Shown: piece after piece, positions 43,557-61,033 of the stretch | Layout: each line of letters begins with the position of its first letter | Position numbering within the stretch: position 1 is the first letter of the stretch | NCBI GenBank assembly: GCA_016931655.1 | Contig: JAFGEJ010000200.1 | Coordinates: 6,015-70,014, forward strand | Direction of reading: 5' to 3' | Source of the DNA: Phycisphaerae bacterium | GTDB taxonomy: Bacteria; Planctomycetota; Phycisphaerae; SM23-33 | Length of the DNA stretch: 64,000 nucleotides | Made by a program: the position numbers and the translations under genes | The notes under the pieces: model-generated | What the model was told of the DNA's origin: nothing | Seen by the model: only the letters and a program-made list of their open reading frames with translations | The model's database searches: none

Positions 43557-43753
43557 GCAATTCTCTACCGCGGCGTCCGAAGAAGAAGGCCGAAAACTAC
43601 CATTTTTCCGATAAAAATCGGCGGGGCGCCTTCCGATATCTTTTTTGATGGGGAAGGGGTGTGTCCACCGGGCCGGACGTACCACCGGGAGGAATCCTGT
43701 GTATTTCGGACCACGTAGGGCCTGCGAACATTCGGGGAACGGGGAAAAACTTC

Positions 43754-46192
43754 ATGCAAGATCCTGTGCAGAACACTGAAAATCCGCGTACGGCGGACAC
43801 GGTAGAGACGCTATCGCCTCCCCAAACCGGCACAACTCCACCGCCGAAAAAACGTTTCCGATTCCGATTGACGTCGCTGCTGGCGATGGGAGCGGGCGTT
43901 GCGATGTGCCTGACGACGTTCCAGGCCATCCGCGAAACACAATTGCGAATGACGCACCCGACGTGGTACGCCTGGGGCATGCTGATTTCCGGCCTGATTC
44001 TCACGACATTCCTGGCGATTTCTCTCCATCTGCTCTTCTCGCAACCGGCACGCTTCGGGCAAACCCTGAGCCCCCGGGCCGAAAAACGCCTGCAAAAAAC
44101 ACTGCACTATTCCGTCGGCATCCTGGAAGCCCTGCCGTTCGGTGTGTTCGTCGTCGGGCCGGATCGGCGCATTCGAATGATCAATCAGACCGCCCTGGCG
44201 ATGATGGGGCGAAATCGCCGGGACGTTCTCGGAAGCGTCTGTCAAACCCATGTTTGTTTTTCCGGCCTGGACGGCTGCCCGATATTGGATCACGGCGAAA
44301 TCGTCGACCAGGCCGAATGCACGCTCCTGCGCGCCGACGGGGAACAGATTCCGGTCCTTAAAACCGTCATTCCCGTCCGGCTGGACGACGAAGAAGTCCT
44401 GCTGGAATCGTTCATCGACATCACCAAACGCAAGCAGGTGGAGGAAAACCTCCGCGAGGCGAAAGAACAGACCGAATCGCTGAACGAGGAACTGCGTCAG
44501 CAGACGCTTCTGGCTCGCCAGATGGCGATGGAGGCAAAAGTCGCCGCGGAAGCGAAAGACCGGTTCCTGACCAATATGAGCCACGAAATCCGCACGCCGC
44601 TGAACGGCGTGATGGGAATGAACCAACTGCTGCTGGGCACGTCTCTCGATCCGGATCAACGCTATTACTCTGAAACCATCCATACCTGCGCCGGGCAACT
44701 CCTCAAATTCATCGAGGACGTGCTGGATTACGAAAAGCTGGAAACCGGCGAACTGCAGCTCCAGAAGGTGGAGTTTGATTTACGCAGCCTGGTGGAGGAA
44801 ACCGCCGAGACCCTGGCCTTAAAAGCACATCAGCAGGAACTGGCGTTTTCCGTGTACGTTGATCCCGCGGCGCCCCGGTTCCTGCGTGGAGACGCGAATC
44901 GGCTGCATCGGGTCCTGGTCAATCTGATCGGCAACGCCGTCAAATTCACCGAAACCGGCGAAGTAGCCATGTCCGTCACGCTGTGCGAAGAACCCCCCGC
45001 CCACGCCGTGTTGCGGTTTTCCGTGCGGGACACGGGAGTCGGGATTCCCCCGGATCAGCAGGAACGGATTTTTGACCTGTTCGCCCAACTGGACGATTCC
45101 ATGTCGCGCCGTCACGAGGGAATGGGGCTGGGACTGACCCTCGCGCGACAATTTGTCCTGTTGATGGGCGGAGACATCCACGTTCACAGCGACGTGGGAC
45201 AAGGCTCGGAATTCTGGTTCGTCATCACGCTGGAGAAGCAACTCGACGCGGAGCAGACGCTCCCCGTTCCGTCGGAGCTGAACGGCCTGGACGTTCTGGT
45301 GGTAAACGAAGACGCCGCCGGTCGGCGCGTGCTGCGTCGTTACCTGGAAAGCTGGGGCTGCCGCGTTCGGGACGCCCTGGACACTCGGGAAGCCCAAAGG
45401 TTCCTCGAAGCCGCCCGCGACGAAGCTCCCTGTGTTCCGGTTGTGCTCATCAGTCGCTCTTTGCCCGACAACGGGGCCGAAGTATTGGCCCGGTGGATTC
45501 GTCGGTCGGAGACACTGCATGGAACGACGATGATTTTGTTGACGCCCCGGGTGCAGCGCGGAGACGCACGACGGATTCGGGAATTGGGATACCTCGGATA
45601 TCTGCCACAACCGATCAAGTATCAAAACCTGCTGGACGTCCTTCAGGCGGCGGTGGAATTTCAGAAAGGGGAAACACCACCGGACGAAGAGGAATCGTTT
45701 GAGGAACCGGCGTCTGTTTTGTCTTCTTCCGCCTTCCGCGCGAACGGATCTTCCCTGTTTTCCGCCCGCATCCTCCTGGTGGAGGACAACCACGCCAATC
45801 AGGTCATTGCAATGGAAATTCTCAAGTCGCTGGGATTTACCTCACGGGCGGTTCGTAACGGACGCCAGGCCGTCGATCTGCTCAGCCGGGAGGATTTCGA
45901 CCTGGTTCTGATGGACTGCCAGATGCCCGTAATGGACGGATACGAAGCCGCGCAGATTATCCGCGACCCTTCCTCGCCGGTTCGCCGCCATGACATGCCG
46001 ATCATCGCAATGACCGCCCACGCCCGCGACGGCGACCGGGAAAAATGCCTTTCCGCCGGCATGAACGACTACCTGGCCAAACCCGTCATGCCCGAAGCGT
46101 TGTCCGTCGCCCTGGCGCGCCATCTTCCACCGCCGGCTCCTCCCGACGAGTCGTCGCTTCCGCTTACCTCTCCCTTTCCCCGTTCGGAATAA
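43754..46192 (+). CDS. Hybrid sensor histidine kinase (2 TM, PAS, HisKA, HATPase, two receiver domains)
   Basis: Start at MQDPVQN. H-box MSHEIRTPLNGV. ATPase GMGLGLTLARQFV. Receivers VLVVNEDAAG... and ILLVEDNHANQ...LMDCQMPVMDGYE. The C-terminal receiver of this protein ends at 46192. Confidence 0.85.
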   Translation: MQDPVQNTENPRTADTVETLSPPQTGTTPPPKKRFRFRLTSLLAMGAGVAMCLTTFQAIRETQLRMTHPTWYAWGMLISGLILTTFLAISLHLLFSQPARFGQTLSPRAEKRLQKTLHYSVGILEALPFGVFVVGPDRRIRMINQTALAMMGRNRRDVLGSVCQTHVCFSGLDGCPILDHGEIVDQAECTLLRADGEQIPVLKTVIPVRLDDEEVLLESFIDITKRKQVEENLREAKEQTESLNEELRQQTLLARQMAMEAKVAAEAKDRFLTNMSHEIRTPLNGVMGMNQLLLGTSLDPDQRYYSETIHTCAGQLLKFIEDVLDYEKLETGELQLQKVEFDLRSLVEETAETLALKAHQQELAFSVYVDPAAPRFLRGDANRLHRVLVNLIGNAVKFTETGEVAMSVTLCEEPPAHAVLRFSVRDTGVGIPPDQQERIFDLFAQLDDSMSRRHEGMGLGLTLARQFVLLMGGDIHVHSDVGQGSEFWFVITLEKQLDAEQTLPVPSELNGLDVLVVNEDAAGRRVLRRYLESWGCRVRDALDTREAQRFLEAARDEAPCVPVVLISRSLPDNGAEVLARWIRRSETLHGTTMILLTPRVQRGDARRIRELGYLGYLPQPIKYQNLLDVLQAAVEFQKGETPPDEEESFEEPASVLSSSAFRANGSSLFSARILLVEDNHANQVIAMEILKSLGFTSRAVRNGRQAVDLLSREDFDLVLMDCQMPVMDGYEAAQIIRDPSSPVRRHDMPIIAMTAHARDGDREKCLSAGMNDYLAKPVMPEALSVALARHLPPPAPPDESSLPLTSPFPRSE

Positions 46193-46223
46193 CATGGAAC
46201 CGCGCATAGAGGCGCAGAAAAAA

Positions 46224-46257
46224 GCGGCGGATGCCGCCGTGGCTGGGCATCCGCCGC
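46224..46257 (-). terminator. Intrinsic terminator for the small basic-protein gene; also closes the convergent hybrid HK gene
   Basis: Perfect 12-bp stem GCGGCGGATGCC / GGCATCCGCCGC with a 10-nt loop. On the minus strand it is followed by TTTTTT (AAAAAA at 46218-46223 on the plus strand). Confidence 0.65.
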
Positions 46258-46355
46258 ACATTCGAGTCACCCCCGCCGGTTTCAGCGAGGGCCGTCGTCG
46301 AAAAATCTCTGACGACAATTGCAAAGTTTTAGGGCTGTCTACCTTTTCTTCGCAA

Positions 46356-46469
46356 CTTACCTTCTTTTCTTCGCTACTTTTTTCTTCTTCGCCACTTTCT
46401 TCTTCTTCGCTACTTTCTTCTTGGCGACTTTTTTCTTGGCCGCCTTCTTCGCTGCTTTCTTCTTGGCCA
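46356..46469 (-). CDS. 37-aa Lys/Ala-rich highly basic small protein (histone-H1-like tail / nucleoid-associated-like), absent from the ORF track
   Basis: Reverse complement reads ATG GCC AAG AAG AAA GCA GCG ... AGA AGG TAA, giving MAKKKAAKKAAKKKVAKKKVAKKKKVAKKKKVAKKRR. The ATG is preceded by AAGGAGGTGAAAAGAC, a perfect SD with 7-nt spacing. An intrinsic terminator lies downstream and a sigma70-like TTGCAT-18-TATAAG sits upstream. Confidence 0.6.
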
Positions 46470-46527
46470 TGTCTTTTCACCTCCTTCCGTGAGTAAAGGA
46501 GACATTCCAGAAGAAAAAACTTTTTCT

Positions 46528-51378: not shown

Positions 51379-52299
51379 TTATTGCGCGTCAAGGAAGGAC
51401 CAGAGCATTTCGGCCTGTTCGTAGTAGGGCGCCCGGCCGGTGGGCGCTTGGCCGGGAGGAATGGCTGCGCTTTGTATCGTACCGTCGTCCGTGATTGTCG
51501 TTACCCCGCCATGGCCGAAGAGTACGTTGTATTTTTTCTCGTGACAACGGCCTCGCCATACGCGCTTTGCGCCGGGGTCTGACGATGTGGCGCTGTATTC
51601 CCGCGTCCAGAACGTATCGGCCAGCAGGGCGCTGAGGGCAGGATCGTACACCCCGCCGTCGGTGTCGTATGTATACTCCGTGTGCACGTAGGGAACCATC
51701 TGCCGTGTCGCGCCCCCACCGGAACCGCCGGGGATGTACTCCCAATGTCCGCTGGCGGCGAACCGATAGATCGCCAGAACGTCCGGGCCTCCCTTGGGAC
51801 TGGCGCGAAGTTCTTGCGCCCCGCGGAACAGGTCTTCGCTGTGCGGGAAACGAAGGCAATACGTGCTGAACTGGTCGGAGTAGGGGAAGTAGCTCGCTTT
51901 TCCGTCGCGCAAGGCGCCGTCGGCGCCGGGGCAGATCAATCCCTCCGCCGTAATGTAATGGGTATGCACAAGCGTCTGGAGGTTCACGCGGGCCATCTCG
52001 TCGGGGAATCGGCCGAACAGATCGGGATCGGCGGGATTTTGCGATCCGCCCCAATGGCCTGACAACAGCAGGTCCGGCTGGGCGGCGCTGCTGAAGGCGA
52101 ACGGCGGAAAGAGGCTTTGGTACTCGGCGGTGTACAACCAAAGCCCGGCGCTGAGATTTTTCAGTCCGGCCTGGCAGGCGGCCAGGCGGGCGCTGTTCCG
52201 GGCGGAGCGGACGGCTGGCACGAGAATCGAAACCAGAAGACTGATGATGGCAATAACAATCATCACCTCCAGTAACGTGAAACCCCGGCTCCTGTGCAT
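51379..52299 (-). CDS. Prepilin-type N-terminal cleavage/methylation domain protein with a DUF1559 C-terminal domain (planctomycete pseudopilin family)
   Basis: MHRSRGFTLLEVMIVIAIISLLVSILVPAV is a class III signal peptide. The C-terminus carries KYNVLFGHGGV, the DUF1559 NVLF-DG-V signature. Confidence 0.85.
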   Translation of the reverse strand: MHRSRGFTLLEVMIVIAIISLLVSILVPAVRSARNSARLAACQAGLKNLSAGLWLYTAEYQSLFPPFAFSSAAQPDLLLSGHWGGSQNPADPDLFGRFPDEMARVNLQTLVHTHYITAEGLICPGADGALRDGKASYFPYSDQFSTYCLRFPHSEDLFRGAQELRASPKGGPDVLAIYRFAASGHWEYIPGGSGGGATRQMVPYVHTEYTYDTDGGVYDPALSALLADTFWTREYSATSSDPGAKRVWRGRCHEKKYNVLFGHGGVTTITDDGTIQSAAIPPGQAPTGRAPYYEQAEMLWSFLDAQ

Positions 52300-52508: not shown

Positions 52509-53384
52509 ATGGCCGCCACGCTAGCCTGCATCGCCGAGGAGGAAATCCACCGCCAATGGGACGCCGGCCTGCTGAAGGGCCAGGCGCTGGGCCGTCGCGC
52601 CACGCCCTACGGCGACAGCGGCGATATCTTCCGCGCGGGGAATGACGAGACGGCGTTCTACCTCCTGGCCCGCTGTGGTTCCGGAATGGACCGAATCGCC
52701 CCGCATCGCGTCAACGCGCGGGCGAATCTGTACGCACTGAAGGACCTGGGCGTGCATTGCATTCTCGGCTGGGGGCCCGGGGCCGCCATCACGCACAACA
52801 TCGCCGAGGGCGACCTGGTGATTCTCAGCGACCTGATCGACCAGACGCATCTGCGCCCGCGGACGTTCTTTGAAGATTCGCCGCTGGGGGAGCTGCGCCA
52901 GTTTCCGGTGTTCTGCGAGGAACTACGCCGCCGGCTGGCCGGGGCGCTGGAAGGCCTGAAACTGGTGTACCACGCCACCGGCACGGCGGCGGTGCGGGAA
53001 GGGCCGCGTTTGGAAACGCCCGCGGAGGTCCGCATGCTCTCGATGCTCGGCGCGGAGATCGTCACGCACACGTTCGCGCCGGAGGCGTTTCTCGCCCGCG
53101 AACTGCAGATGGGCTACGCGGCCGTCTGCTACGTCACAAGCTACGCCGAAAGGGGCAGCCGCCATCAACCCTTCGCGGCTGGGGAATTGTTCAAGGACCT
53201 GGGCTACGCCGCCGAAGCGGACCGCCGCGGCGCCGCCGAGGCCCTGGGACGCATCGCCGCGCAACTGGCGGGCGGCCTGGCGGAGCTGGACCTGAAGACC
53301 TACCCCCCAGCCGCCTCCCAGACCGACCACGTCGGGCAGTACAACCTCCCCGCCGACTGGCGCGAATGGTTCGAACATCGATAA
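52509..53384 (+). CDS. Purine-nucleoside / 5'-methylthioadenosine phosphorylase family protein (PNP/MTAP fold)
   Basis: ATG 52509 preceded by GAGGACG. GDLVILSDLIDQTHLRPRTFFED and THTFAPEAFLARELQMGYAAVCYVTSYAE resemble MtnP motifs. Confidence 0.6.
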   Translation: MAATLACIAEEEIHRQWDAGLLKGQALGRRATPYGDSGDIFRAGNDETAFYLLARCGSGMDRIAPHRVNARANLYALKDLGVHCILGWGPGAAITHNIAEGDLVILSDLIDQTHLRPRTFFEDSPLGELRQFPVFCEELRRRLAGALEGLKLVYHATGTAAVREGPRLETPAEVRMLSMLGAEIVTHTFAPEAFLARELQMGYAAVCYVTSYAERGSRHQPFAAGELFKDLGYAAEADRRGAAEALGRIAAQLAGGLAELDLKTYPPAASQTDHVGQYNLPADWREWFEHR

Positions 53385-53418: not shown

Positions 53419-54459
53419 TTACTTCCCGATGTTCAGAAGCTCATCGGAGAACTCCGCCAGACCGATGCCCTGGGACGGGTTCGGGAGCGGTTCATCGCCG
53501 TAACGCGGTTTTCCATCGTGCACGGCGGCCAGGCCGGTGTAGAACAGCAGAACTTTACCCCGCCACCGGACGGGCTGAGCCACAGCGATCACGCTGCCGC
53601 AATCGAATCCACCCCGCGGACCGAGCGGAAGAATGGGTGTTCTGTCATTCTCGCGTTTCCACACCCAGCCGTTCGGACTGCTCAGAAGCTGCACGTCCAT
53701 TGTCTGATCTTCGGTATGGTGACAGTTCAGCAGTCCGCCGAAACCGCCCGCTGTCGTCCGGAAAGGCGTCAGCCAATAAAACTGCACGTCGGGAACGTCC
53801 TGCTCGTCGGGTTCGAAAATCGTGATCGGCCCCCGCCAGCCGCCCGCGAAATCCTCCGCCACCCAGAGCGAAATCCGCCGGTGCATGTACTTCAGGTTGT
53901 CCCGATCGGCGGGCAGGAGCGGATTGTACTTCCAGGTCTGCTGGTAGATGAGGGTTGTGGCCTTTTTGCGGGTCGGGTCCAGGTTTGGTTCGGTGGTAAT
54001 CATGGACATGGCGTCGTTGTGGTTGATAATCACCGGCCGCGTGTGCACGGGCTGCCAGTCCAGGCCGTCAGCGCTTTGGGCGAGGCAGATTCCCGCCTTC
54101 ATCGACTCGTCAGGCCGATCCCAATACACCATTTTCCACCGGCGGGCCGGATCGGTTTCTTGCGGGTTTCGGAGAATCGTCGCGGGCATGAATTCGCCCC
54201 AGCCGCACTGGTTGCCGCAGCCGCGCATGACGATATTGGTTCCGTCGCCGCAATCCGGTTTTGTCCAGGCACAGCCGTCCCGCGATCGGGCAAGGCAAAG
54301 CACATTGTTCAGCGACTTGTCCTCGAACCGAACCAGGTAATACAAAAGAAGATCGTCGGTTTCCTCGTCCGGAATCGCGGCGACGGCGAGAAACGACGAA
54401 TCCTTTTCCCATTCCTGATCGGCGGGGAAAATCGGCTGGGAAGATCGGTTCAAAAGCAT
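53419..54459 (-). CDS. Hypothetical beta-propeller glycoside-hydrolase-like protein (GH43/GH32/GH117-like fold, tentative)
   Basis: 346 aa, Trp/Gly-rich repeats (WGEFMPATI..WKMVYWD..WQPVHTRPVIINHND..). No signal peptide. Confidence 0.35.
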   Translation of the reverse strand: MLLNRSSQPIFPADQEWEKDSSFLAVAAIPDEETDDLLLYYLVRFEDKSLNNVLCLARSRDGCAWTKPDCGDGTNIVMRGCGNQCGWGEFMPATILRNPQETDPARRWKMVYWDRPDESMKAGICLAQSADGLDWQPVHTRPVIINHNDAMSMITTEPNLDPTRKKATTLIYQQTWKYNPLLPADRDNLKYMHRRISLWVAEDFAGGWRGPITIFEPDEQDVPDVQFYWLTPFRTTAGGFGGLLNCHHTEDQTMDVQLLSSPNGWVWKRENDRTPILPLGPRGGFDCGSVIAVAQPVRWRGKVLLFYTGLAAVHDGKPRYGDEPLPNPSQGIGLAEFSDELLNIGK

Positions 54460-54759
54460 GCTCTATCCTCTTGTTGAGTTTCAATCCTTCCACTTCTTGG
54501 AAAATTTCAGGACAAGCGAATGGACTCTCTAGGAATTTCTCTGATATACTTACAAGACGAGAAGACTATCCGGATATTTTGACGGCTGCAAGAATACATT
54601 TTCCCGTATCGGATAGATTGACCAAGTCCGCTGGATAAGCCGTTTGTGGGTACATATGCATAAATATCGCCTGTATCTTACGAATCGTTTTTTTCGCGAT
54701 AAACTTTACTATCGAATAGAAGTTAGCGATCTTGGAAAACAAATTTCCCTGCAACAAAA

Positions 54760-55701
54760 TTGCATCAGAGAGAAAGGCCTGGCGACGTGCGAGTAAATAA
54801 TATTCCACAAGCTTTTCCCTACCAAGGAAGCAAGCGAAAGCTAGCGTCAGTGATTCTCGCCTGTATTCCGAAAAACACACGCCGACTGGTGGAACCATTT
54901 GCGGGTTCCGCTGCCATATCGGTGGCGGCTGCCTGGAATGAAAGGGTAGATTCGTTTTGGCTCAATGATGCACATTCGCCTCTCATGGCACTATGGAATG
55001 CCATTCTCAACGCTCCCCTTGCTCTTGCCGACGACTATGAGAAAATCTGGACGGCGCAGCAGGGACGCGAAAAAGAGTATTACAATGCTGTCCGGGACAG
55101 ATTTAATCGGGATTCCCAGCCGGCGGATTTCCTTTTTCTCCTAGCACGATGCGTAAAAGCGGCGATTCGATATAACAGGAGTGGAGAATTCAATAACAGT
55201 CCGGATCACCGCCGTCTCGGAATGAAACCGGAGACAATGCGCAAAAATATCCTGATGGTTCACGAGGTATTGCGAGACCAGACAATGCTCACAACAGGGG
55301 ACTTCAGGGCGGTTCTTCGAAAGACGCGAAAAACAGATTTTGTCTATATGGACCCGCCATATCAAGGGGTCTGTAAAAATAGGGATAACCGATACGCGAA
55401 AAGCGTGGTATTCGAGGAATTTGTTAAGGAATTGAACGCTTTGAACGAGAGACAAATTCCCTTCATTGTCAGCTATGACGGCCGCACGGGAAACACGATA
55501 TACGGGGAGAAATTGCCTGAGTCCCTTGATTTGTTTCACAGTGAAATTTTTGTCGGAAGATCCACGCAGGCGACATTACTTGGCCGAAGTCACGATACAT
55601 ATGAATCGCTGTACCTGTCTCCGTTAGCGGTAAGAAGACTTGGTGATATTCCGAGAGTTCTTCGGGAAAACGAATCGACGGTTCAACTGTTGTTCGATTA
55701 A
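54760..55701 (+). CDS. Dam-family (D12 class, alpha group) N6-adenine DNA methyltransferase
   Basis: AFPYQGSKRKL...LVEPFAGSAAIS is the AdoMet-binding motif I region and VYMDPPYQG is the DPPY motif IV. Collinear with E. coli Dam. TTG 54760, or GTG 54787 with AGAAAGG upstream. AT-richer than the flanks. Confidence 0.8.
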   Translation: MHQRERPGDVRVNNIPQAFPYQGSKRKLASVILACIPKNTRRLVEPFAGSAAISVAAAWNERVDSFWLNDAHSPLMALWNAILNAPLALADDYEKIWTAQQGREKEYYNAVRDRFNRDSQPADFLFLLARCVKAAIRYNRSGEFNNSPDHRRLGMKPETMRKNILMVHEVLRDQTMLTTGDFRAVLRKTRKTDFVYMDPPYQGVCKNRDNRYAKSVVFEEFVKELNALNERQIPFIVSYDGRTGNTIYGEKLPESLDLFHSEIFVGRSTQATLLGRSHDTYESLYLSPLAVRRLGDIPRVLRENESTVQLLFD

Positions 55702-56435
55702 TGGGTTCTTTTCATCGTGTTTTTAATGAATACAACCAGGGAGACGCCGGTTTGTTCGCACCGTTTCCGCAATCGCTCATATTCCGCCACTTCCTCCGGT
55801 CCTATCCAGACAATCTCAACTCTGCGTCTCTCCTCCATTGCTATATGCTCATATTTTTCCGGGGAAGCCCAATAACATCGTTTACACGTTGCCGATCGTT
55901 TGAACTCCATCCAATTCCTGCAATGTTCACAAGACCAGCTTTTTTGTCGTTGCGCCGCCGTTGAAATCAACATAAATGCTGAAGGGTTCTCTTCGCCTGA
56001 AATTTGATCGCCCGCCACTTCATATGGAATTCGATGGTCTATGGAAAGATATCGCGGATGAAACGGTTCGCCCGTGATCGCGCAAACGGCCCCTCGTTGT
56101 TCAACGAGTAGTTTCTTGAATGCTTTTGAAAATACTTTTCGTCCTCCAAGTTTATGATGTTCAATTTTTGAAGGATCGCCGAAAATATATGCCGCGATAA
56201 GACGTCCGTCAGAATTACGAACTCGGATCGTATCTAGGGGAATTCCCTGTTCCCGAACATCGCGCGCGGCACGCGGAGCGTGGTTGTAACCGTATATATT
56301 TTTGAGATCCTCCGTTGTAATTTTACCGTGTTTTAGAATGTGGTTTATGACAGCCAGTGGTCGTTTGCCTGTAACTCTTCTGATCTGTGCTCGTATTTTC
56401 GGATGAACTTTCGCCATACTATTCTCATTCAACAC
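55698..56435 (-). CDS. HNH-family endonuclease, putative restriction endonuclease partner of the methyltransferase
   Basis: SIDHRIPYEVAGD ... CEHCRNW ... CKRCYW form an HNH core with Cys pairs. Convergent with the MTase and overlapping it by 4 nt. Same AT-richer composition. The start could be MAK at 56417. Confidence 0.6.
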   Translation of the reverse strand: MLNENSMAKVHPKIRAQIRRVTGKRPLAVINHILKHGKITTEDLKNIYGYNHAPRAARDVREQGIPLDTIRVRNSDGRLIAAYIFGDPSKIEHHKLGGRKVFSKAFKKLLVEQRGAVCAITGEPFHPRYLSIDHRIPYEVAGDQISGEENPSAFMLISTAAQRQKSWSCEHCRNWMEFKRSATCKRCYWASPEKYEHIAMEERRRVEIVWIGPEEVAEYERLRKRCEQTGVSLVVFIKNTMKRTH

Positions 56436-56657
56436 GTTGAAAATTTACTTCGTAACGCGGATGCGCGGAACTATGTGGCCTTCCCGTCGTAAAAGGATGA
56501 AATCACAGAACATATTTTATTTTCTGAAATTTGCGCATGTTATAACCGCCAAGAGGGAACCCGGCAATTTTAATTTGACGCCAGGCATTGGCGAAAAGGA
56601 TTTCATTACTGAGTACGGTTTCTCAAAACGCGCGAAACATCATTCTGGTGGAACAGA

Positions 56658-57512
56658 TCATCCCATGGGAATGGTTCCGACGGCGCGGAAGCGGCCTGGC
56701 GTCATGCCCAGGATGTGCTTGAAGGTGCGCGTGAAATGCGCGGGCGCGTCGTAGCCGAGGCGCACGGCGATTTCCTTGTGCGTCAGTTGGGTGGTTTTGA
56801 GCAGCCGGCAGGCCAGCAGCATCTTTTGCCGCAGCATATACCGCCGCGGCGTCCGGGAGGTCTGCTCCTTGAAGATGCGCGTCAGGTGCTCGCGCGAGAC
56901 CCTCAGCCGCTCCGCCAGCTCCGATACGTTCATGTTTTCGTGCAGGGTCTCGCGGATGATCTCGACGGCCCGGGCGGCCAGGCGGTTGCCCATATTGTCC
57001 TGACGGGGTTGTTCTTTGCTCTCGGCCAGCTCCGTCAGAAGACGTATCGCCAGCCGGCTGGCGAAGGCGGGGGAAATCCGAGGCCGGGCGTCATGGTAAT
57101 CGGCGAAAGACAGCATCTCCGCCACGACGCCGTCCTCACGCGGCAATTCATACACCGGCCCGTAGCGATGCAGCAGTTCACGCACCATCTCGAAGGCCGG
57201 CGCACCGGTAATGCTCATGTACACGAACGACCAGGGCTTGCTCGCGGCGGCGGGATAATAGTAGGCCGTCGCGGGATCGCGGATTTCACACAGAAACCCG
57301 CACCCGGCTGGGATTCGATGCTCGCCCGCGGCGTCGCGGAACACACCCTCCCCAGCCAGCGTGTATTTGAACAGGCAGGTCTCCTCCCTTCGCCGATATC
57401 GGCCTTCATGATGATACGACGGCTTGGAAACCGTCTCGCTGGCGACGGTGATTGCCCGCGGCAATGACGCCATCGGACGAAAGATCTGAAAATTCACGGC
57501 CCAGTGAATCAT
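56658..57512 (-). CDS. AraC/XylS-family transcriptional regulator (cupin + dual HTH)
   Basis: C-terminal ...MNVSELAERLRVSREHLTRIFKEQT...LTHKEIAVRLGYDAPAHFTRTFK... Divergent from the GH4 glycosidase gene. Confidence 0.8.
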   Translation of the reverse strand: MIHWAVNFQIFRPMASLPRAITVASETVSKPSYHHEGRYRRREETCLFKYTLAGEGVFRDAAGEHRIPAGCGFLCEIRDPATAYYYPAAASKPWSFVYMSITGAPAFEMVRELLHRYGPVYELPREDGVVAEMLSFADYHDARPRISPAFASRLAIRLLTELAESKEQPRQDNMGNRLAARAVEIIRETLHENMNVSELAERLRVSREHLTRIFKEQTSRTPRRYMLRQKMLLACRLLKTTQLTHKEIAVRLGYDAPAHFTRTFKHILGMTPGRFRAVGTIPMG

Positions 57513-59269: not shown

Positions 59270-61033
59270 ATGCGGCGGGCCGGGATGTATCGGCCCCGTT
59301 GCAGAAAAACGATCATGTGCGCACGAAAGCAGAAAAAGCGGCTGGGGGACATTCTGAAGGAATGGGGGGTAGTTACGGAAACGGGGCTGAAGGAGGCGGT
59401 CGAATACAGCCGCAATGAGGGCGTCCGCATCGGCGAGGCGATGATCTCGCTGGGATTGTCCGACGAGGAAGACGTCACCAAGGCCCTGGCCGTCCAGTAC
59501 GACATGGAGTACGTGGACCTGGACCGGAACATTATCAGCGCCTCGGAGGCGACCCTGCTGCCGGAAGATCGGGTCAAGCGTCACCAGGTCATACCGATGG
59601 CCCGGGACGAGAAAGGCCGGCTGAAGGTCATCATCACCGACCCGCTGGACCTCGAAACGCTCGACATGCTCCGGTTCATGCTCAACGAAGACCCCATCCC
59701 CTGCCTGGCGTCGAAATCCAAGGTGCGGGCGTACATTGACACGAACATCGGCACGAAGATGTCCGTCGACCAGCAGGTGAAGGAATTCCAGGCCGCCAAC
59801 GCCGCCAACGGCGAAATCCCCTCGGAACTGGCCGGCGAAGACATGGACAACGCCGCCCCCGTCGTGCGCCTGGTCTCGATGATTATCACCGAGGCCGTCA
59901 ACATGCGCGCCAGTGACATCCACGTCGAGCCGATGGCCAACCGCGTCCGCGTGCGCTACCGCATCGACGGAATGTGCATCGAGCGGGACAACATCCCAAA
60001 ACGAATGCAAGGGCCTGTGGTTAACCGATTTAAGATCCTTTCCGGCATGGACCTTGCCGAGAAGCGCGTCCCGCTGGACGGGCGTATCAAGATGCATATC
60101 GCCGGAACGGACATCGACTTCCGCGTCTCGGCCCTGCCGGCGTATCACGGCGAGAGCGTGGTGCTGCGTATTTTGCGCCCCGACGCCGCCAAGATCGGAA
60201 TCACGGCGTTGGGATTCGAGGAGGAAGATAACCAGCGGTTCCATCGGATCATCAAAAGGCCTAACGGGATATTCCTGGTGACCGGGCCGACCGGATCAGG
60301 GAAAACCACGACCCTCTATTCCGCCCTGAACGAGCTGAATCGCCCGGACAGGAAAATCATCACCGCCGAGGACCCGGTGGAGTATAATTTCACCGGAATT
60401 AACCAATGTCAGGTACGGGACGACATCGGATTGACATTCGCTTCCATTCTCCGATCCATGCTTCGCCAGGCGCCAAACATCATACTTGTTGGCGAAATCC
60501 GCGATTTAGACGTAGCGGAAGTGGCAATTCAAGCCGCTTTAACTGGACACTTGGTTTTCAGTACACTTCACACGAACGACGCGCCCTCCGCAATTACCCG
60601 CCTGATCGACATGGGAGTCAAGCCATTCCTCGTGGCCAGCAGTATCCAGGCAATCATGGCCCAGAGACTGGTCCGAAAAATCTGCCCGAACTGCAAGGAC
60701 ATCGACCCCGATCCTGATCCAAGGACGCTCAAACTTCTTGGATTTACAGAGGAGGAAGTGGCAAACTCAACCTTCTTTGTCGGAAGGGGTTGCAATCAAT
60801 GTAATGGAACGGGATATCATGGGCGGCAGGGAATTTTTGAACTGCTGGAAATGAACACCGCCCTGCGTCAACTGGCCTTCGACCGGGCGCCGCTTTCGGA
60901 AATCCGAAAAACCGCCATCGCCGCCGGCATGAAAACGCTCCTGGAAGATGGAAAACGAAAGATCCGAAACGGCATTACCACGACCGAAGAGCTTGTTCGC
61001 ATCACGCAGAGCCTCGATAACCTCGACGCATAA
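59270..61033 (+). CDS. GspE/PilB-family secretion/pilus-assembly ATPase
   Basis: N-terminal GSPII_E_N domain. Walker A VTGPTGSGKTT, Asp box, Walker B and His box. Tetracysteine CPNC...CNQC. The start could be ATG 59315. Confidence 0.8.
   Translation: MRRAGMYRPRCRKTIMCARKQKKRLGDILKEWGVVTETGLKEAVEYSRNEGVRIGEAMISLGLSDEEDVTKALAVQYDMEYVDLDRNIISASEATLLPEDRVKRHQVIPMARDEKGRLKVIITDPLDLETLDMLRFMLNEDPIPCLASKSKVRAYIDTNIGTKMSVDQQVKEFQAANAANGEIPSELAGEDMDNAAPVVRLVSMIITEAVNMRASDIHVEPMANRVRVRYRIDGMCIERDNIPKRMQGPVVNRFKILSGMDLAEKRVPLDGRIKMHIAGTDIDFRVSALPAYHGESVVLRILRPDAAKIGITALGFEEEDNQRFHRIIKRPNGIFLVTGPTGSGKTTTLYSALNELNRPDRKIITAEDPVEYNFTGINQCQVRDDIGLTFASILRSMLRQAPNIILVGEIRDLDVAEVAIQAALTGHLVFSTLHTNDAPSAITRLIDMGVKPFLVASSIQAIMAQRLVRKICPNCKDIDPDPDPRTLKLLGFTEEEVANSTFFVGRGCNQCNGTGYHGRQGIFELLEMNTALRQLAFDRAPLSEIRKTAIAAGMKTLLEDGKRKIRNGITTTEELVRITQSLDNLDA

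What the first reader, a model, noticed from the sequence alone, without database searches (positions are those of the whole stretch)
54480..56660. AT-richer islet carrying a Dam-like methyltransferase and convergent, 4-nt-overlapping HNH endonuclease: a likely acquired Type II R-M system
By eye (not computed), about 54.5-56.6 kb is clearly more AT-rich than the roughly 65% GC flanks. The MTase has complete D12-class motifs (PYQGSKR, DPPY). The convergent partner has an HNH core (DHRIPYEVAGD, CxxC pairs). HNH restriction enzymes paired with Dam-family MTases are a less common combination than PD-(D/E)xK partners. Specificity is unknown and GATC should not be assumed. No integrase or TIRs are visible, so the insertion mechanism is unclear.
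Basis: partly seen in the sequence, partly recalled or inferred. Interest (0 to 1): 0.65.

Follow-up and report, generated by a model that had tools for sequence, protein, structure and literature searches.

The report
SphI-family restriction-modification gene islet
A 2.2-kb AT-rich insert in a Phycisphaerae (Planctomycetota) genome carries an intact two-gene restriction-modification defence system related to the classic enzyme SphI; it is a real, horizontally acquired system but an ordinary member of a very widespread known family.

Summary
Window 54460-56657 has 45.7% GC against 60.6% elsewhere, and GC3 is 0.40 against 0.74-0.82 in neighbouring genes. It fills the gap between two host genes and holds two intact convergent genes whose stop codons overlap in TTAA: a D12-class N6-adenine methyltransferase (54787-55701, +) and a 239-aa winged-helix + HNH nuclease (55698-56417, -).

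Both proteins are full-length homologues of the SphI system of Streptomyces phaeochromogenes. The nuclease is 38% identical to R.SphI. The methyltransferase is 44% identical to the gene next to sphIR. Both match PADLOC Type II R-M models. Relatives occur in at least 586 species genomes from more than 20 phyla. In 78 of the 80 best loci the nuclease sits beside this methyltransferase (60 tandem, 18 convergent).

The interpretation "acquired Type II R-M" is therefore supported. The HNH + Dam-like pairing is not unusual, because it is the known SphI kind. The recognition site is probably GCATGC or similar, not GATC, but this is inferred and site-avoidance tests were inconclusive.

The window shows no integrase, tRNA or flanking repeats. 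In a sister genome and about 10 of 61 other loci the same cassette is bracketed by 29-101-nt target-derived direct repeats. This is the known "insertion with long target duplication" pattern.

Verdict: new member of a known kind, low interest.

The parts
54460..56657 (.). AT-rich islet (2,198 bp). It fills exactly the space between the start codon of host gene X346 (53419-54459, -) and the stop codon of the host AraC-family gene (56658-57512, -).
   Evidence: GC is 0.457 against 0.606, the lowest 2.2-kb window in the 64 kb. GC3 is 0.40 against 0.74-0.82.
54460..54786 (+). Non-coding leader upstream of the methyltransferase gene (327 bp, GC about 0.42). It has one sigma-70-like match at 54521-54550 (TGGACT-18-TATACT with TG) and an AAAGG Shine-Dalgarno-like element 9 nt before the GTG start.
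   Evidence: The promoter match is a consensus match only; the region as a whole is not significantly enriched (6 sites against 3.1 +/- 1.6). No similarity to any other fetched locus. No Rfam match.
54787..55701 (+). D12-class (alpha group) N6-adenine DNA methyltransferase, 304 aa. Motifs: PYQGSKR 54817-54837, FAGSAA (SAM binding, motif I) 54898-54915, DPPY (catalytic, motif IV) 55351-55362.
   Evidence: PF02086 at 3.8e-37; TIGR00571 at 127 bits (cutoff 114.85); PADLOC MTase_II PDLC03341 at 8.4e-75, full length. It is 44% identical (E 2e-83) to the D12 methyltransferase encoded next to sphIR, and 77% identical to L001.
55698..55701 (.). TTAA stop-on-stop overlap of the two convergent genes. 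There is no room for an intergenic terminator.
   Evidence: The same 4-nt overlap occurs in L001, L003/L004 and L011/L012.
55698..56417 (-). SphI-family Type IIP restriction endonuclease, 239 aa. Domains: N-terminal winged helix (about residues 15-80, 56178-56375), HNH/beta-beta-alpha-Me domain (about residues 110-191, 55845-56090), C-terminal helical pair.
56034..56039 (-). D127-H128, the invariant Asp-His of the HNH motif (presumed general base).
   Evidence: Invariant in a 21-sequence alignment that spans the window clade and the SphI clade.
55875..55931 (-). Two invariant CxxC pairs: C163-E-H-C166 at 55920-55931 and C178-K-R-C181 at 55875-55886. This is the presumed structural zinc site.
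   Evidence: The CxxC pair that lies N-terminal to DH in SphI is reduced to C112...T115 in this clade.
56418..56657 (-). Non-coding leader upstream of the nuclease gene (240 bp, GC about 0.45), with two sigma-70-like matches on the - strand (56594-56567 and 56543-56514).
   Evidence: consensus matches only. No similarity to other loci.

Best explanation
The islet is an intact, horizontally acquired Type IIP restriction-modification system of the SphI family.

Methyltransferase. It is a D12-class, SAM-dependent enzyme with a DPPY active site. It methylates N6 of an adenine on both strands of a short palindromic site. The site is most likely GCATGC (giving GCm6ATGC), as for SphI.

Nuclease. It reads the same site with its N-terminal winged helix. 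Its recognition helix, H-x-PRAxRD, is conserved with R.SphI. It cuts unmethylated incoming DNA with a metal-dependent HNH (beta-beta-alpha-Me) active site centred on D127-H128. By analogy with SphI it probably leaves 4-nt 3' overhangs.

Expression. Each gene has its own AT-rich leader. The genes are transcribed towards each other and overlap at their stops, and there is no controller (C) protein. Any timing control would therefore have to come from promoter strengths or convergent transcription.

What is shown: gene integrity, motifs, predicted fold, homology of both proteins to the SphI pair, obligate R-M linkage across phyla, and foreign base composition.

What is inferred: enzymatic activity, the recognition site, the cleavage geometry and the regulation.

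Arrival. The cassette came as a roughly 2-kb gene-pair unit without its own recombinase. Sister loci suggest the known 'insertion with long target duplication' route. The window itself keeps no trace of it.
For: - Composition.
- Family assignments: PF02086 and TIGR00571 above their cutoffs; PADLOC MTase_II at 8.4e-75 and REase_II at 6.9e-45, both full length.
- R.SphI identity: P0121 is 100% identical to the protein named 'SphI restriction endonuclease [Streptomyces phaeochromogenes]'. It is 38% identical to the window nuclease, E 2e-50.
- The D12 methyltransferase adjacent to sphIR (L006-L008) is 44% identical to the window methyltransferase, E 2e-83.
- 33 invariant nuclease residues are shared across both clades. 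They include the recognition-helix motif G43-Y44-x-H46-x-P48-R49-A50-x-x-D53, D127-H128 and four cysteines.
- The methyltransferase segment RCVKAA-RY--G-FN---DHRRLG, taken by analogy with Dam to be the target-recognition hairpin, is conserved in 84 family members including the SphI-linked one.
- The structure model shows a winged helix plus an HNH domain.
- Linkage: 78 of 80 genome loci carry the methyltransferase next to the nuclease, as do L001-L005 and L009-L012.
- SphI recognises GCATGC and is blocked by m6A (PMC6191088).
- SphI is classed as an HNH nuclease with an HTH-like domain before the His-Me finger (PMC2441816 and PMC5714182).
- Cassette GC is on average 7.8 points below its flanks across 73 loci.
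Against: - No biochemical or methylome data exist for this organism.
- Identity to the SphI pair is only 38% and 44%, a range in which specificity can differ.
- GCATGC is not specifically avoided. In the window there are 10 sites against about 20 expected at zero order, and other palindromes are lower. In 0.97 Mb of flanks from 71 carrier genomes O/E is 0.67, rank 23 of 64. In 83 cassettes there are 9 sites against 17 expected under synonymous-codon shuffling, z = -2.3, rank 33 of 80.
- The window nuclease gets no Pfam HNH hit at E <= 0.01.
- The CxxC pair that lies N-terminal to the DH motif in SphI is degenerate in this clade.
- Gene order differs from SphI, which is tandem M->R.
- The promoter-like sites are not enriched over shuffles.
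Confidence: 0.85

Rival explanations
1. It is the same SphI-family Type II R-M system, but this clade recognises a different sequence from GCATGC, either another CATG-containing site such as RCATGY or an unrelated palindrome.
For: Identity to the SphI pair is only 38% and 44%. The window clade differs from the SphI clade at the first CxxC and at the N/Q of the HNH motif. GCATGC shows no specific avoidance.
Against: The recognition helix of the nuclease winged helix and the presumed target-recognition hairpin segment of the methyltransferase are conserved across both clades. Site avoidance gave no alternative candidate either.
Confidence: 0.35
2. It is a decaying or inactive remnant: a solitary working methyltransferase with a dead nuclease, or both genes silent. 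In that case it would have an epigenetic role or none, rather than a defence role.
For: There are no expression or activity data. The cassette is AT-rich in a GC-rich host and could be poorly expressed. One relative (L003) has the methyltransferase called as only 154 aa by the gene caller.
Against: Both ORFs are full length with every family-invariant residue and all catalytic motifs. In L003 the full 304-aa methyltransferase frame still aligns. The pair keeps 74-78% amino-acid identity with intact partners in three related genomes.
Confidence: 0.07
3. It is a selfish mobile nuclease-methyltransferase unit whose own HNH nuclease drives insertion into new sites with long target duplication. It would then act primarily as a mobile element rather than as a host defence.
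For: Target-derived direct repeats of 29-101 nt bracket the roughly 2-kb cassette in L001 and in 10 of 61 other loci, against 3 of 292 control positions. No recombinase gene lies inside. The family is spread over more than 20 phyla.
Against: The window has no flanking repeat. The inner ends of the inserts share no motif, and the repeats have no common CATG or GCATGC junction. In Pseudomonas and Rahnella the cassette rides inside larger phage-like islands. The long-target-duplication phenomenon is already described for all R-M types without an established nuclease role (PMC2853133).
Confidence: 0.1
4. It is an assembly or binning artefact: a foreign low-GC fragment wrongly joined into a high-GC contig.
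For: There is an abrupt 15-point GC drop in a metagenome-assembled genome.
Against: A separately assembled contig (L013) carries AraC-R-M-X346-PNP with 100% identical proteins across both junctions. The sister genome L001 has the same cassette embedded in high-GC DNA.
Confidence: 0.02

Closest known systems
SphI restriction-modification system (Streptomyces phaeochromogenes; GCATGC, m6A-sensitive)
   Same: Both proteins are full-length homologues: nuclease 38% identity (E 2e-50), methyltransferase 44% (E 2e-83). The nuclease architecture is the same (winged helix + HNH with CxxC pairs) and the sizes are similar (239 vs 235 aa; 304 vs 316 aa). The methyltransferase is D12 class in both. The recognition-helix and DHRRLG-hairpin motifs are conserved.
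   Different: The genes are convergent with overlapping stops here and tandem M->R in SphI. The first CxxC is degenerate, and the HNH motif has Q instead of N in this clade. The host phylum is different. Specificity has not been tested.
NlaIII / IceA1 family (CATG; Pfam PF05315)
   Same: It is another Type IIP HNH nuclease. From my own knowledge it is paired with a D12-class adenine methyltransferase and its site lies inside GCATGC.
   Different: The window nuclease has no PF05315 hit at E <= 0.01. The literature treats it as a separate His-Me finger group, 27 rather than 28.
Dam / DpnII-type GATC methyltransferases
   Same: Same D12 fold and motifs. The best solved-structure relatives are M.DpnII 2dpm at 1.2e-10, and EcoDam and T4Dam at about 1e-6.
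   Different: These relatives are distant. The Dam equivalog model scores 50 bits against a cutoff of 441. The window methyltransferase is linked to a nuclease rather than solitary. GATC occurs 10 times in the islet and 335 times in the host DNA and is not avoided.
R-M 'insertion with long target duplication' (Furuta et al. 2010, PMC2853133)
   Same: In L001 and about 10 other family loci, a roughly 2-kb R+M unit with no recombinase is bracketed by target-derived direct repeats longer than 30 nt, often at a gene's 3' end.
   Different: This is not seen in the window itself. No empty site was available for a formal comparison.

Membership tests
SphI-family Type IIP R-M system | Nuclease homologous over its full length to R.SphI | tested here: met
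   38% identity over 220 of 239 aa, E 2e-50, to P0121. P0121 is named 'SphI restriction endonuclease [Streptomyces phaeochromogenes]' by UniRef and nr.
SphI-family Type IIP R-M system | Methyltransferase homologous to the methyltransferase of the SphI system | tested here: met
   44% identity over 288 aa, E 2e-83, to the D12 methyltransferase immediately upstream of sphIR in L006-L008. That this neighbour is M.SphI is inferred from adjacency.
SphI-family Type IIP R-M system | Nuclease and methyltransferase genes adjacent | tested here: met
   They have a 4-nt overlap in the window. They are adjacent in 78 of 80 genome loci.
SphI-family Type IIP R-M system | Recognises GCATGC, cuts GCATG^C, and is blocked by m6A | not testable with these tools
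   Only indirect evidence is available. Recognition motifs are conserved. Site-avoidance tests were inconclusive.
HNH / His-Me finger nuclease superfamily | Beta-beta-alpha-Me fold | tested here: met
HNH / His-Me finger nuclease superfamily | Conserved catalytic His (DH) on the first strand, plus a downstream N/Q and a metal ligand | tested here: met
   D127-H128 are invariant. The Q/N-R-x-K-S and C-E-H/N-C motifs are conserved.
HNH / His-Me finger nuclease superfamily | Match to Pfam HNH model PF01844 | tested here: not met
   No Pfam family matches at E <= 0.01 for the window protein. Some family members do carry precomputed PF01844 or PF14090 hits. The family is known to lack its own Pfam model (group 28 in PMC5714182).
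D12-class (Dam family, alpha) N6-adenine methyltransferase | PF02086 and TIGR00571 above their curated cutoffs; FxGxG-type SAM motif and DPPY motif | tested here: met
   PF02086 scores 128.8 bits (cutoff 22). TIGR00571 scores 127 bits (cutoff 114.85). FAGSAA and DPPY are present.
Orthologous Dam (GATC, solitary) | Match to the Dam equivalog model; no partner nuclease | tested here: not met
   NF008152 scores 50.3 bits against a cutoff of 441. A partner nuclease is present.
NlaIII/IceA nuclease family | Match to PF05315 | tested here: not met
   No hit at E <= 0.01.
R-M insertion with long target duplication | R+M unit under 20 kb, no other mobility gene, bracketed by target-derived direct repeats longer than 30 bp | tested here: not met
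   Window: no flanking repeat above chance. The feature is met in sister locus L001, which has a 62-nt repeat with 60 of 62 identical, and in about 10 of 61 other loci.

The most novel reading that the evidence does not exclude
The SphI-family gene pair may be an autonomous mobile unit that inserts without a recombinase by long target duplication, possibly using its own HNH nuclease. Two related Phycisphaerae genomes would then have acquired it independently within about 1.1 kb of the same PNP-like gene because of a hotspot. The many fresh target duplications in this one family would make the unsolved mechanism testable. A lesser novelty would be that this clade has a recognition site different from GCATGC.
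Probability: 0.1. Interest if true: 0.6.

Novelty: new member of a known kind. Interest (0 to 1): 0.2.

Why it matters
For the window, it matters little. It adds one more predicted SphI-type restriction-modification system, now in Phycisphaerae, an uncultured and genetically intractable lineage. Knowing a likely GCATGC/m6A barrier could help future transformation attempts and the interpretation of methylomes.

The wider by-product has some value. The SphI family is one of the most widely dispersed HNH Type II systems. It occurs in at least 586 species genomes, and cassettes from different phyla are 50-57% identical. A sizeable fraction of its roughly 2-kb cassettes are bracketed by fresh target-derived repeats. 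This gives a large natural data set for the still unexplained 'insertion with long target duplication' route of R-M mobility.

Tried and rejected
1. NlaIII/IceA membership. There is no PF05315 hit, so it was rejected.
2. Sequence search of the nuclease against PDB chains. It gave nothing at E <= 1.
3. Inferring the site from palindrome avoidance, tested three ways:
   - in the 64-kb window;
   - in 0.97 Mb of flanks from 71 carrier genomes;
   - in 83 cassettes, with Markov and with synonymous-codon-shuffle nulls.
   GCATGC is mildly depleted but no more than many other palindromes, so the result is inconclusive.
4. Literature search for methylomes that tie GCATGC m6A to this family. Nothing decisive was found. 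From memory, PaeI of Pseudomonas aeruginosa is an SphI isoschizomer, and a 56%-identical nuclease is common in P. aeruginosa and P. paraeruginosa. I could not verify that this protein is PaeI.
5. Empty-site comparison. The closest metagenome relatives of X346 are at most 65% identical and not syntenic. The exact-protein look-up found only an identical copy.
6. Flanking direct or inverted repeats, and a second copy of the PNP 3' end, in the window. None is above the shuffle level.
7. Similarity of the two non-coding leaders to any other locus. None was found.
8. Rfam search of 54000-57000 and a tRNA search of the whole window. There are no Rfam matches and no tRNA near the islet.
9. Synteny with L003 through the GH4 gene. 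It is only 36% identical and not orthologous.
10. Conserved inner termini of the inserted units. None was found.
Full report
**Observation.** The composition claim holds when computed. Window 54460-56657 is 45.7% GC against 60.6% for the rest of the window. It is the lowest 2.2-kb window of the 64 kb, about 4 sd below the mean. Third-codon-position GC is 0.40 in both island genes against 0.74-0.82 in five neighbours. The low-GC stretch fills exactly the space between two host-like genes. On the left is the start codon of a 346-aa gene of unknown family (53419-54459, -). On the right is the stop codon of an AraC-family regulator (56658-57512, -). A separately assembled contig (L013) carries AraC-R-M-X346-PNP with identical proteins across both junctions, so the islet is not a mis-join. 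The organism is a Phycisphaerae MAG, because the nuclease is 100% identical to NCBI MBN1943357.1.

**The two genes.** The methyltransferase is best read from GTG 54787 to 55701, giving 304 aa. This matches its homologues' length and keeps the conserved N-terminus. It has PYQGSKR, FAGSAA and DPPY. It scores above the curated cutoffs of PF02086 and TIGR00571, and far below the Dam equivalog cutoff (50 bits against 441). The nuclease runs from 56417 to 55698 on the minus strand and is 239 aa. The stops overlap in TTAA (55698-55701). The nuclease has no Pfam, NCBIfam or PDB sequence match. It does match a PADLOC Type II restriction-enzyme model over its full length (6.9e-45), and the methyltransferase matches a Type II methyltransferase model (8.4e-75).

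**Identification.** I recalled the sequence of R.SphI and treated it as a lead to be tested. The recalled sequence is 100% identical over 100% of its length to database protein P0121. UniRef and nr name P0121 'SphI restriction endonuclease [Streptomyces phaeochromogenes]'. The window nuclease is 38% identical to it over 220 residues, E 2e-50. In Streptomyces contigs the gene immediately upstream of sphIR is a D12-class methyltransferase. The window methyltransferase is 44% identical to it over 288 residues, E 2e-83. Both components are therefore SphI homologues.

A 21-sequence alignment spanning both clades has 33 invariant positions. They include:
- G43-Y44-x-H46-x-P48-R49-A50-x-x-D53;
- D127-H128;
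- K159-S160-x-S162-C163-E164-x-C166;
- C178-x-x-C181.

**Is it a real R-M pair?** The nuclease family has more than 3,800 proteins in the large protein database. The best 80 loci come from more than 20 phyla, including Planctomycetota, Chloroflexota, Acidobacteriota, Verrucomicrobiota, Proteobacteria, Nitrospirota, Bacteroidota and Cyanobacteria. In 78 of these 80 loci a homologue of the window methyltransferase lies next to the nuclease. The arrangement is tandem M->R as in SphI in 60 loci and convergent as here in 18. The other two loci end at a contig edge. The convergent pair with overlapping stops is also seen in Pseudomonas and Rahnella, inside phage-like islands. This obligate linkage, together with a biochemically characterised homologue, argues against a homing endonuclease and against an orphan Dam.

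**Specificity.** SphI cuts GCATGC and is blocked by m6A (PMC6191088). The nuclease recognition helix is conserved between the SphI clade and the window clade. So is a strongly conserved methyltransferase segment (RCVKAA-RY--G-FN---DHRRLG), which I take by analogy with Dam to be the target-recognition hairpin. GCATGC is therefore the best guess, at roughly 55%. I could not confirm it.
- In the window there are 10 GCATGC sites against about 20 expected at zero order, and other palindromes are more depleted.
- In 0.97 Mb flanking the cassette in 71 carrier genomes, O/E is 0.67, rank 23 of 64.
- In 83 cassettes there are 9 sites against 32 (Markov) or 17 (synonymous-codon shuffles) expected, z = -2.3, rank 33 of 80.

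**How it arrived.** The window has no integrase, no transposase, no nearby tRNA, no inverted terminal repeats and no flanking direct repeat above chance. No empty site could be found.

A sister Phycisphaerae genome (L001, GCA_016929245.1) carries a cassette 77-78% identical at the protein level, and it is also low in GC there (0.41-0.45 against about 0.6). In L001 the pair is bracketed exactly by a 62-nt direct repeat with 60 of 62 positions identical and a spacing of 2,051 bp. The repeat is the last 62 nt of the adjacent PNP/MTAP-like gene. That gene is the orthologue (79% amino-acid identity) of the window gene at 52515-53384, which ends only 1.07 kb from the window islet.

The two L001 copies share about nine differences from the window sequence and differ from each other at two sites. 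The duplication is therefore younger than the split of the two lineages. So the two insertions look independent, yet they lie next to the same gene. I cannot explain this.

Across the family, 10 of 61 testable loci have target-derived direct repeats of 29-101 nt bracketing a 1.8-2.8-kb unit. One of these is doubtful, and one is a tRNA 3' end. Only 3 of 292 shifted control positions in the same loci have such repeats (Fisher p = 2e-6). The repeats differ from locus to locus and the inner ends share no motif. This is the pattern described as 'insertion with long target duplication' for R-M systems of all types (PMC2853133). It is a plausible route for the window islet too, but the window gives no direct evidence for it.

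**Regulation.** No C-protein gene is present. The two AT-rich leaders (327 and 240 bp) contain sigma-70-like matches facing each gene. Such matches are not enriched over shuffles, and Planctomycetota promoters may differ. No Rfam family matches. Convergent transcription through overlapping stops may influence the R:M balance. This is inference only.

**Verdict.** The system is a new member of a known and very widespread kind, the SphI family. It is not a rare HNH/Dam combination. The unknowns are the exact site, the activity and the insertion history. Interest is low, about 0.2. The family-wide target duplications and the repeated insertion beside the PNP-like gene are the only mildly unusual points.

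Noticed in passing
L001:9711-9772 and L001:11762-11823 (sister Phycisphaerae MAG, GCA_016929245.1): A 62-nt direct repeat (60 of 62 identical, 2,051 bp apart) brackets exactly the homologous R-M pair. It is a duplication of the 3' end of the adjacent PNP-like gene. The orphan copy keeps two states (CATCGAT) shared with the window's PNP gene that L001's functional copy has lost.
   Followed up: yes
window 52515-53384 (PNP/MTAP-like gene) relative to islet 54460-56657; L001:11762-12637: The window and L001 cassettes appear to be independent insertions, because the L001 duplication is younger than the lineage split. Yet both lie within about 1.1 kb of the 3' end of the orthologous PNP-like gene, while nothing else in the neighbourhood is syntenic. 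This is an unexplained coincidence or an insertion hotspot.
   Followed up: partly
L051, L081, L089, L096, L100, L105, L108, L110, L120 (coordinates): About one in six SphI-family cassettes in unrelated phyla is bracketed by a locus-specific direct repeat of 29-101 nt (10 of 61 against 3 of 292 control positions, p = 2e-6). No recombinase gene lies inside and the element ends are not conserved. L100's repeat is a tRNA 3' end.
   Followed up: yes
genome loci L041-L120: Gene order in the family is tandem M->R in 60 loci and convergent in 18. The window methyltransferase is closer to many tandem-type methyltransferases (about 50-55% identity) than to most convergent-type ones (about 43-45%). This suggests repeated re-pairing or inversion of the two genes.
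   Followed up: partly
L010:5703-5945; L011:7571-7837 and L012:1778-2044: A small HARE-HTH (PF05066) gene lies next to the cassette in Rahnella (immediately upstream of the methyltransferase) and in one Pseudomonas-type contig. It could be a controller-like regulator. It is absent from the window.
   Followed up: no
L003:10717-11181: In one JGI contig the methyltransferase next to an intact nuclease was called as only 154 aa, although the full 304-aa frame aligns by tblastn. This could be a frameshift, an assembly error or a gene-caller artefact.
   Followed up: partly
window 45800-46500: This is a second, milder low-GC stretch (about 0.50 against 0.60) around the end of an 843-aa ORF (43661-46192). 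It was not examined.
   Followed up: no
window 51379-52299 (-) and 59270-61033 (+): The host neighbourhood includes a prepilin-type N-terminal-methylation protein typical of Planctomycetota, and an ORF resembling a PilB/GspE-type secretion ATPase (assigned from its sequence and about 40% identity to Pseudomonas T2SSE genes). The 3' part of the latter also dips to about 0.51-0.53 GC.
   Followed up: no
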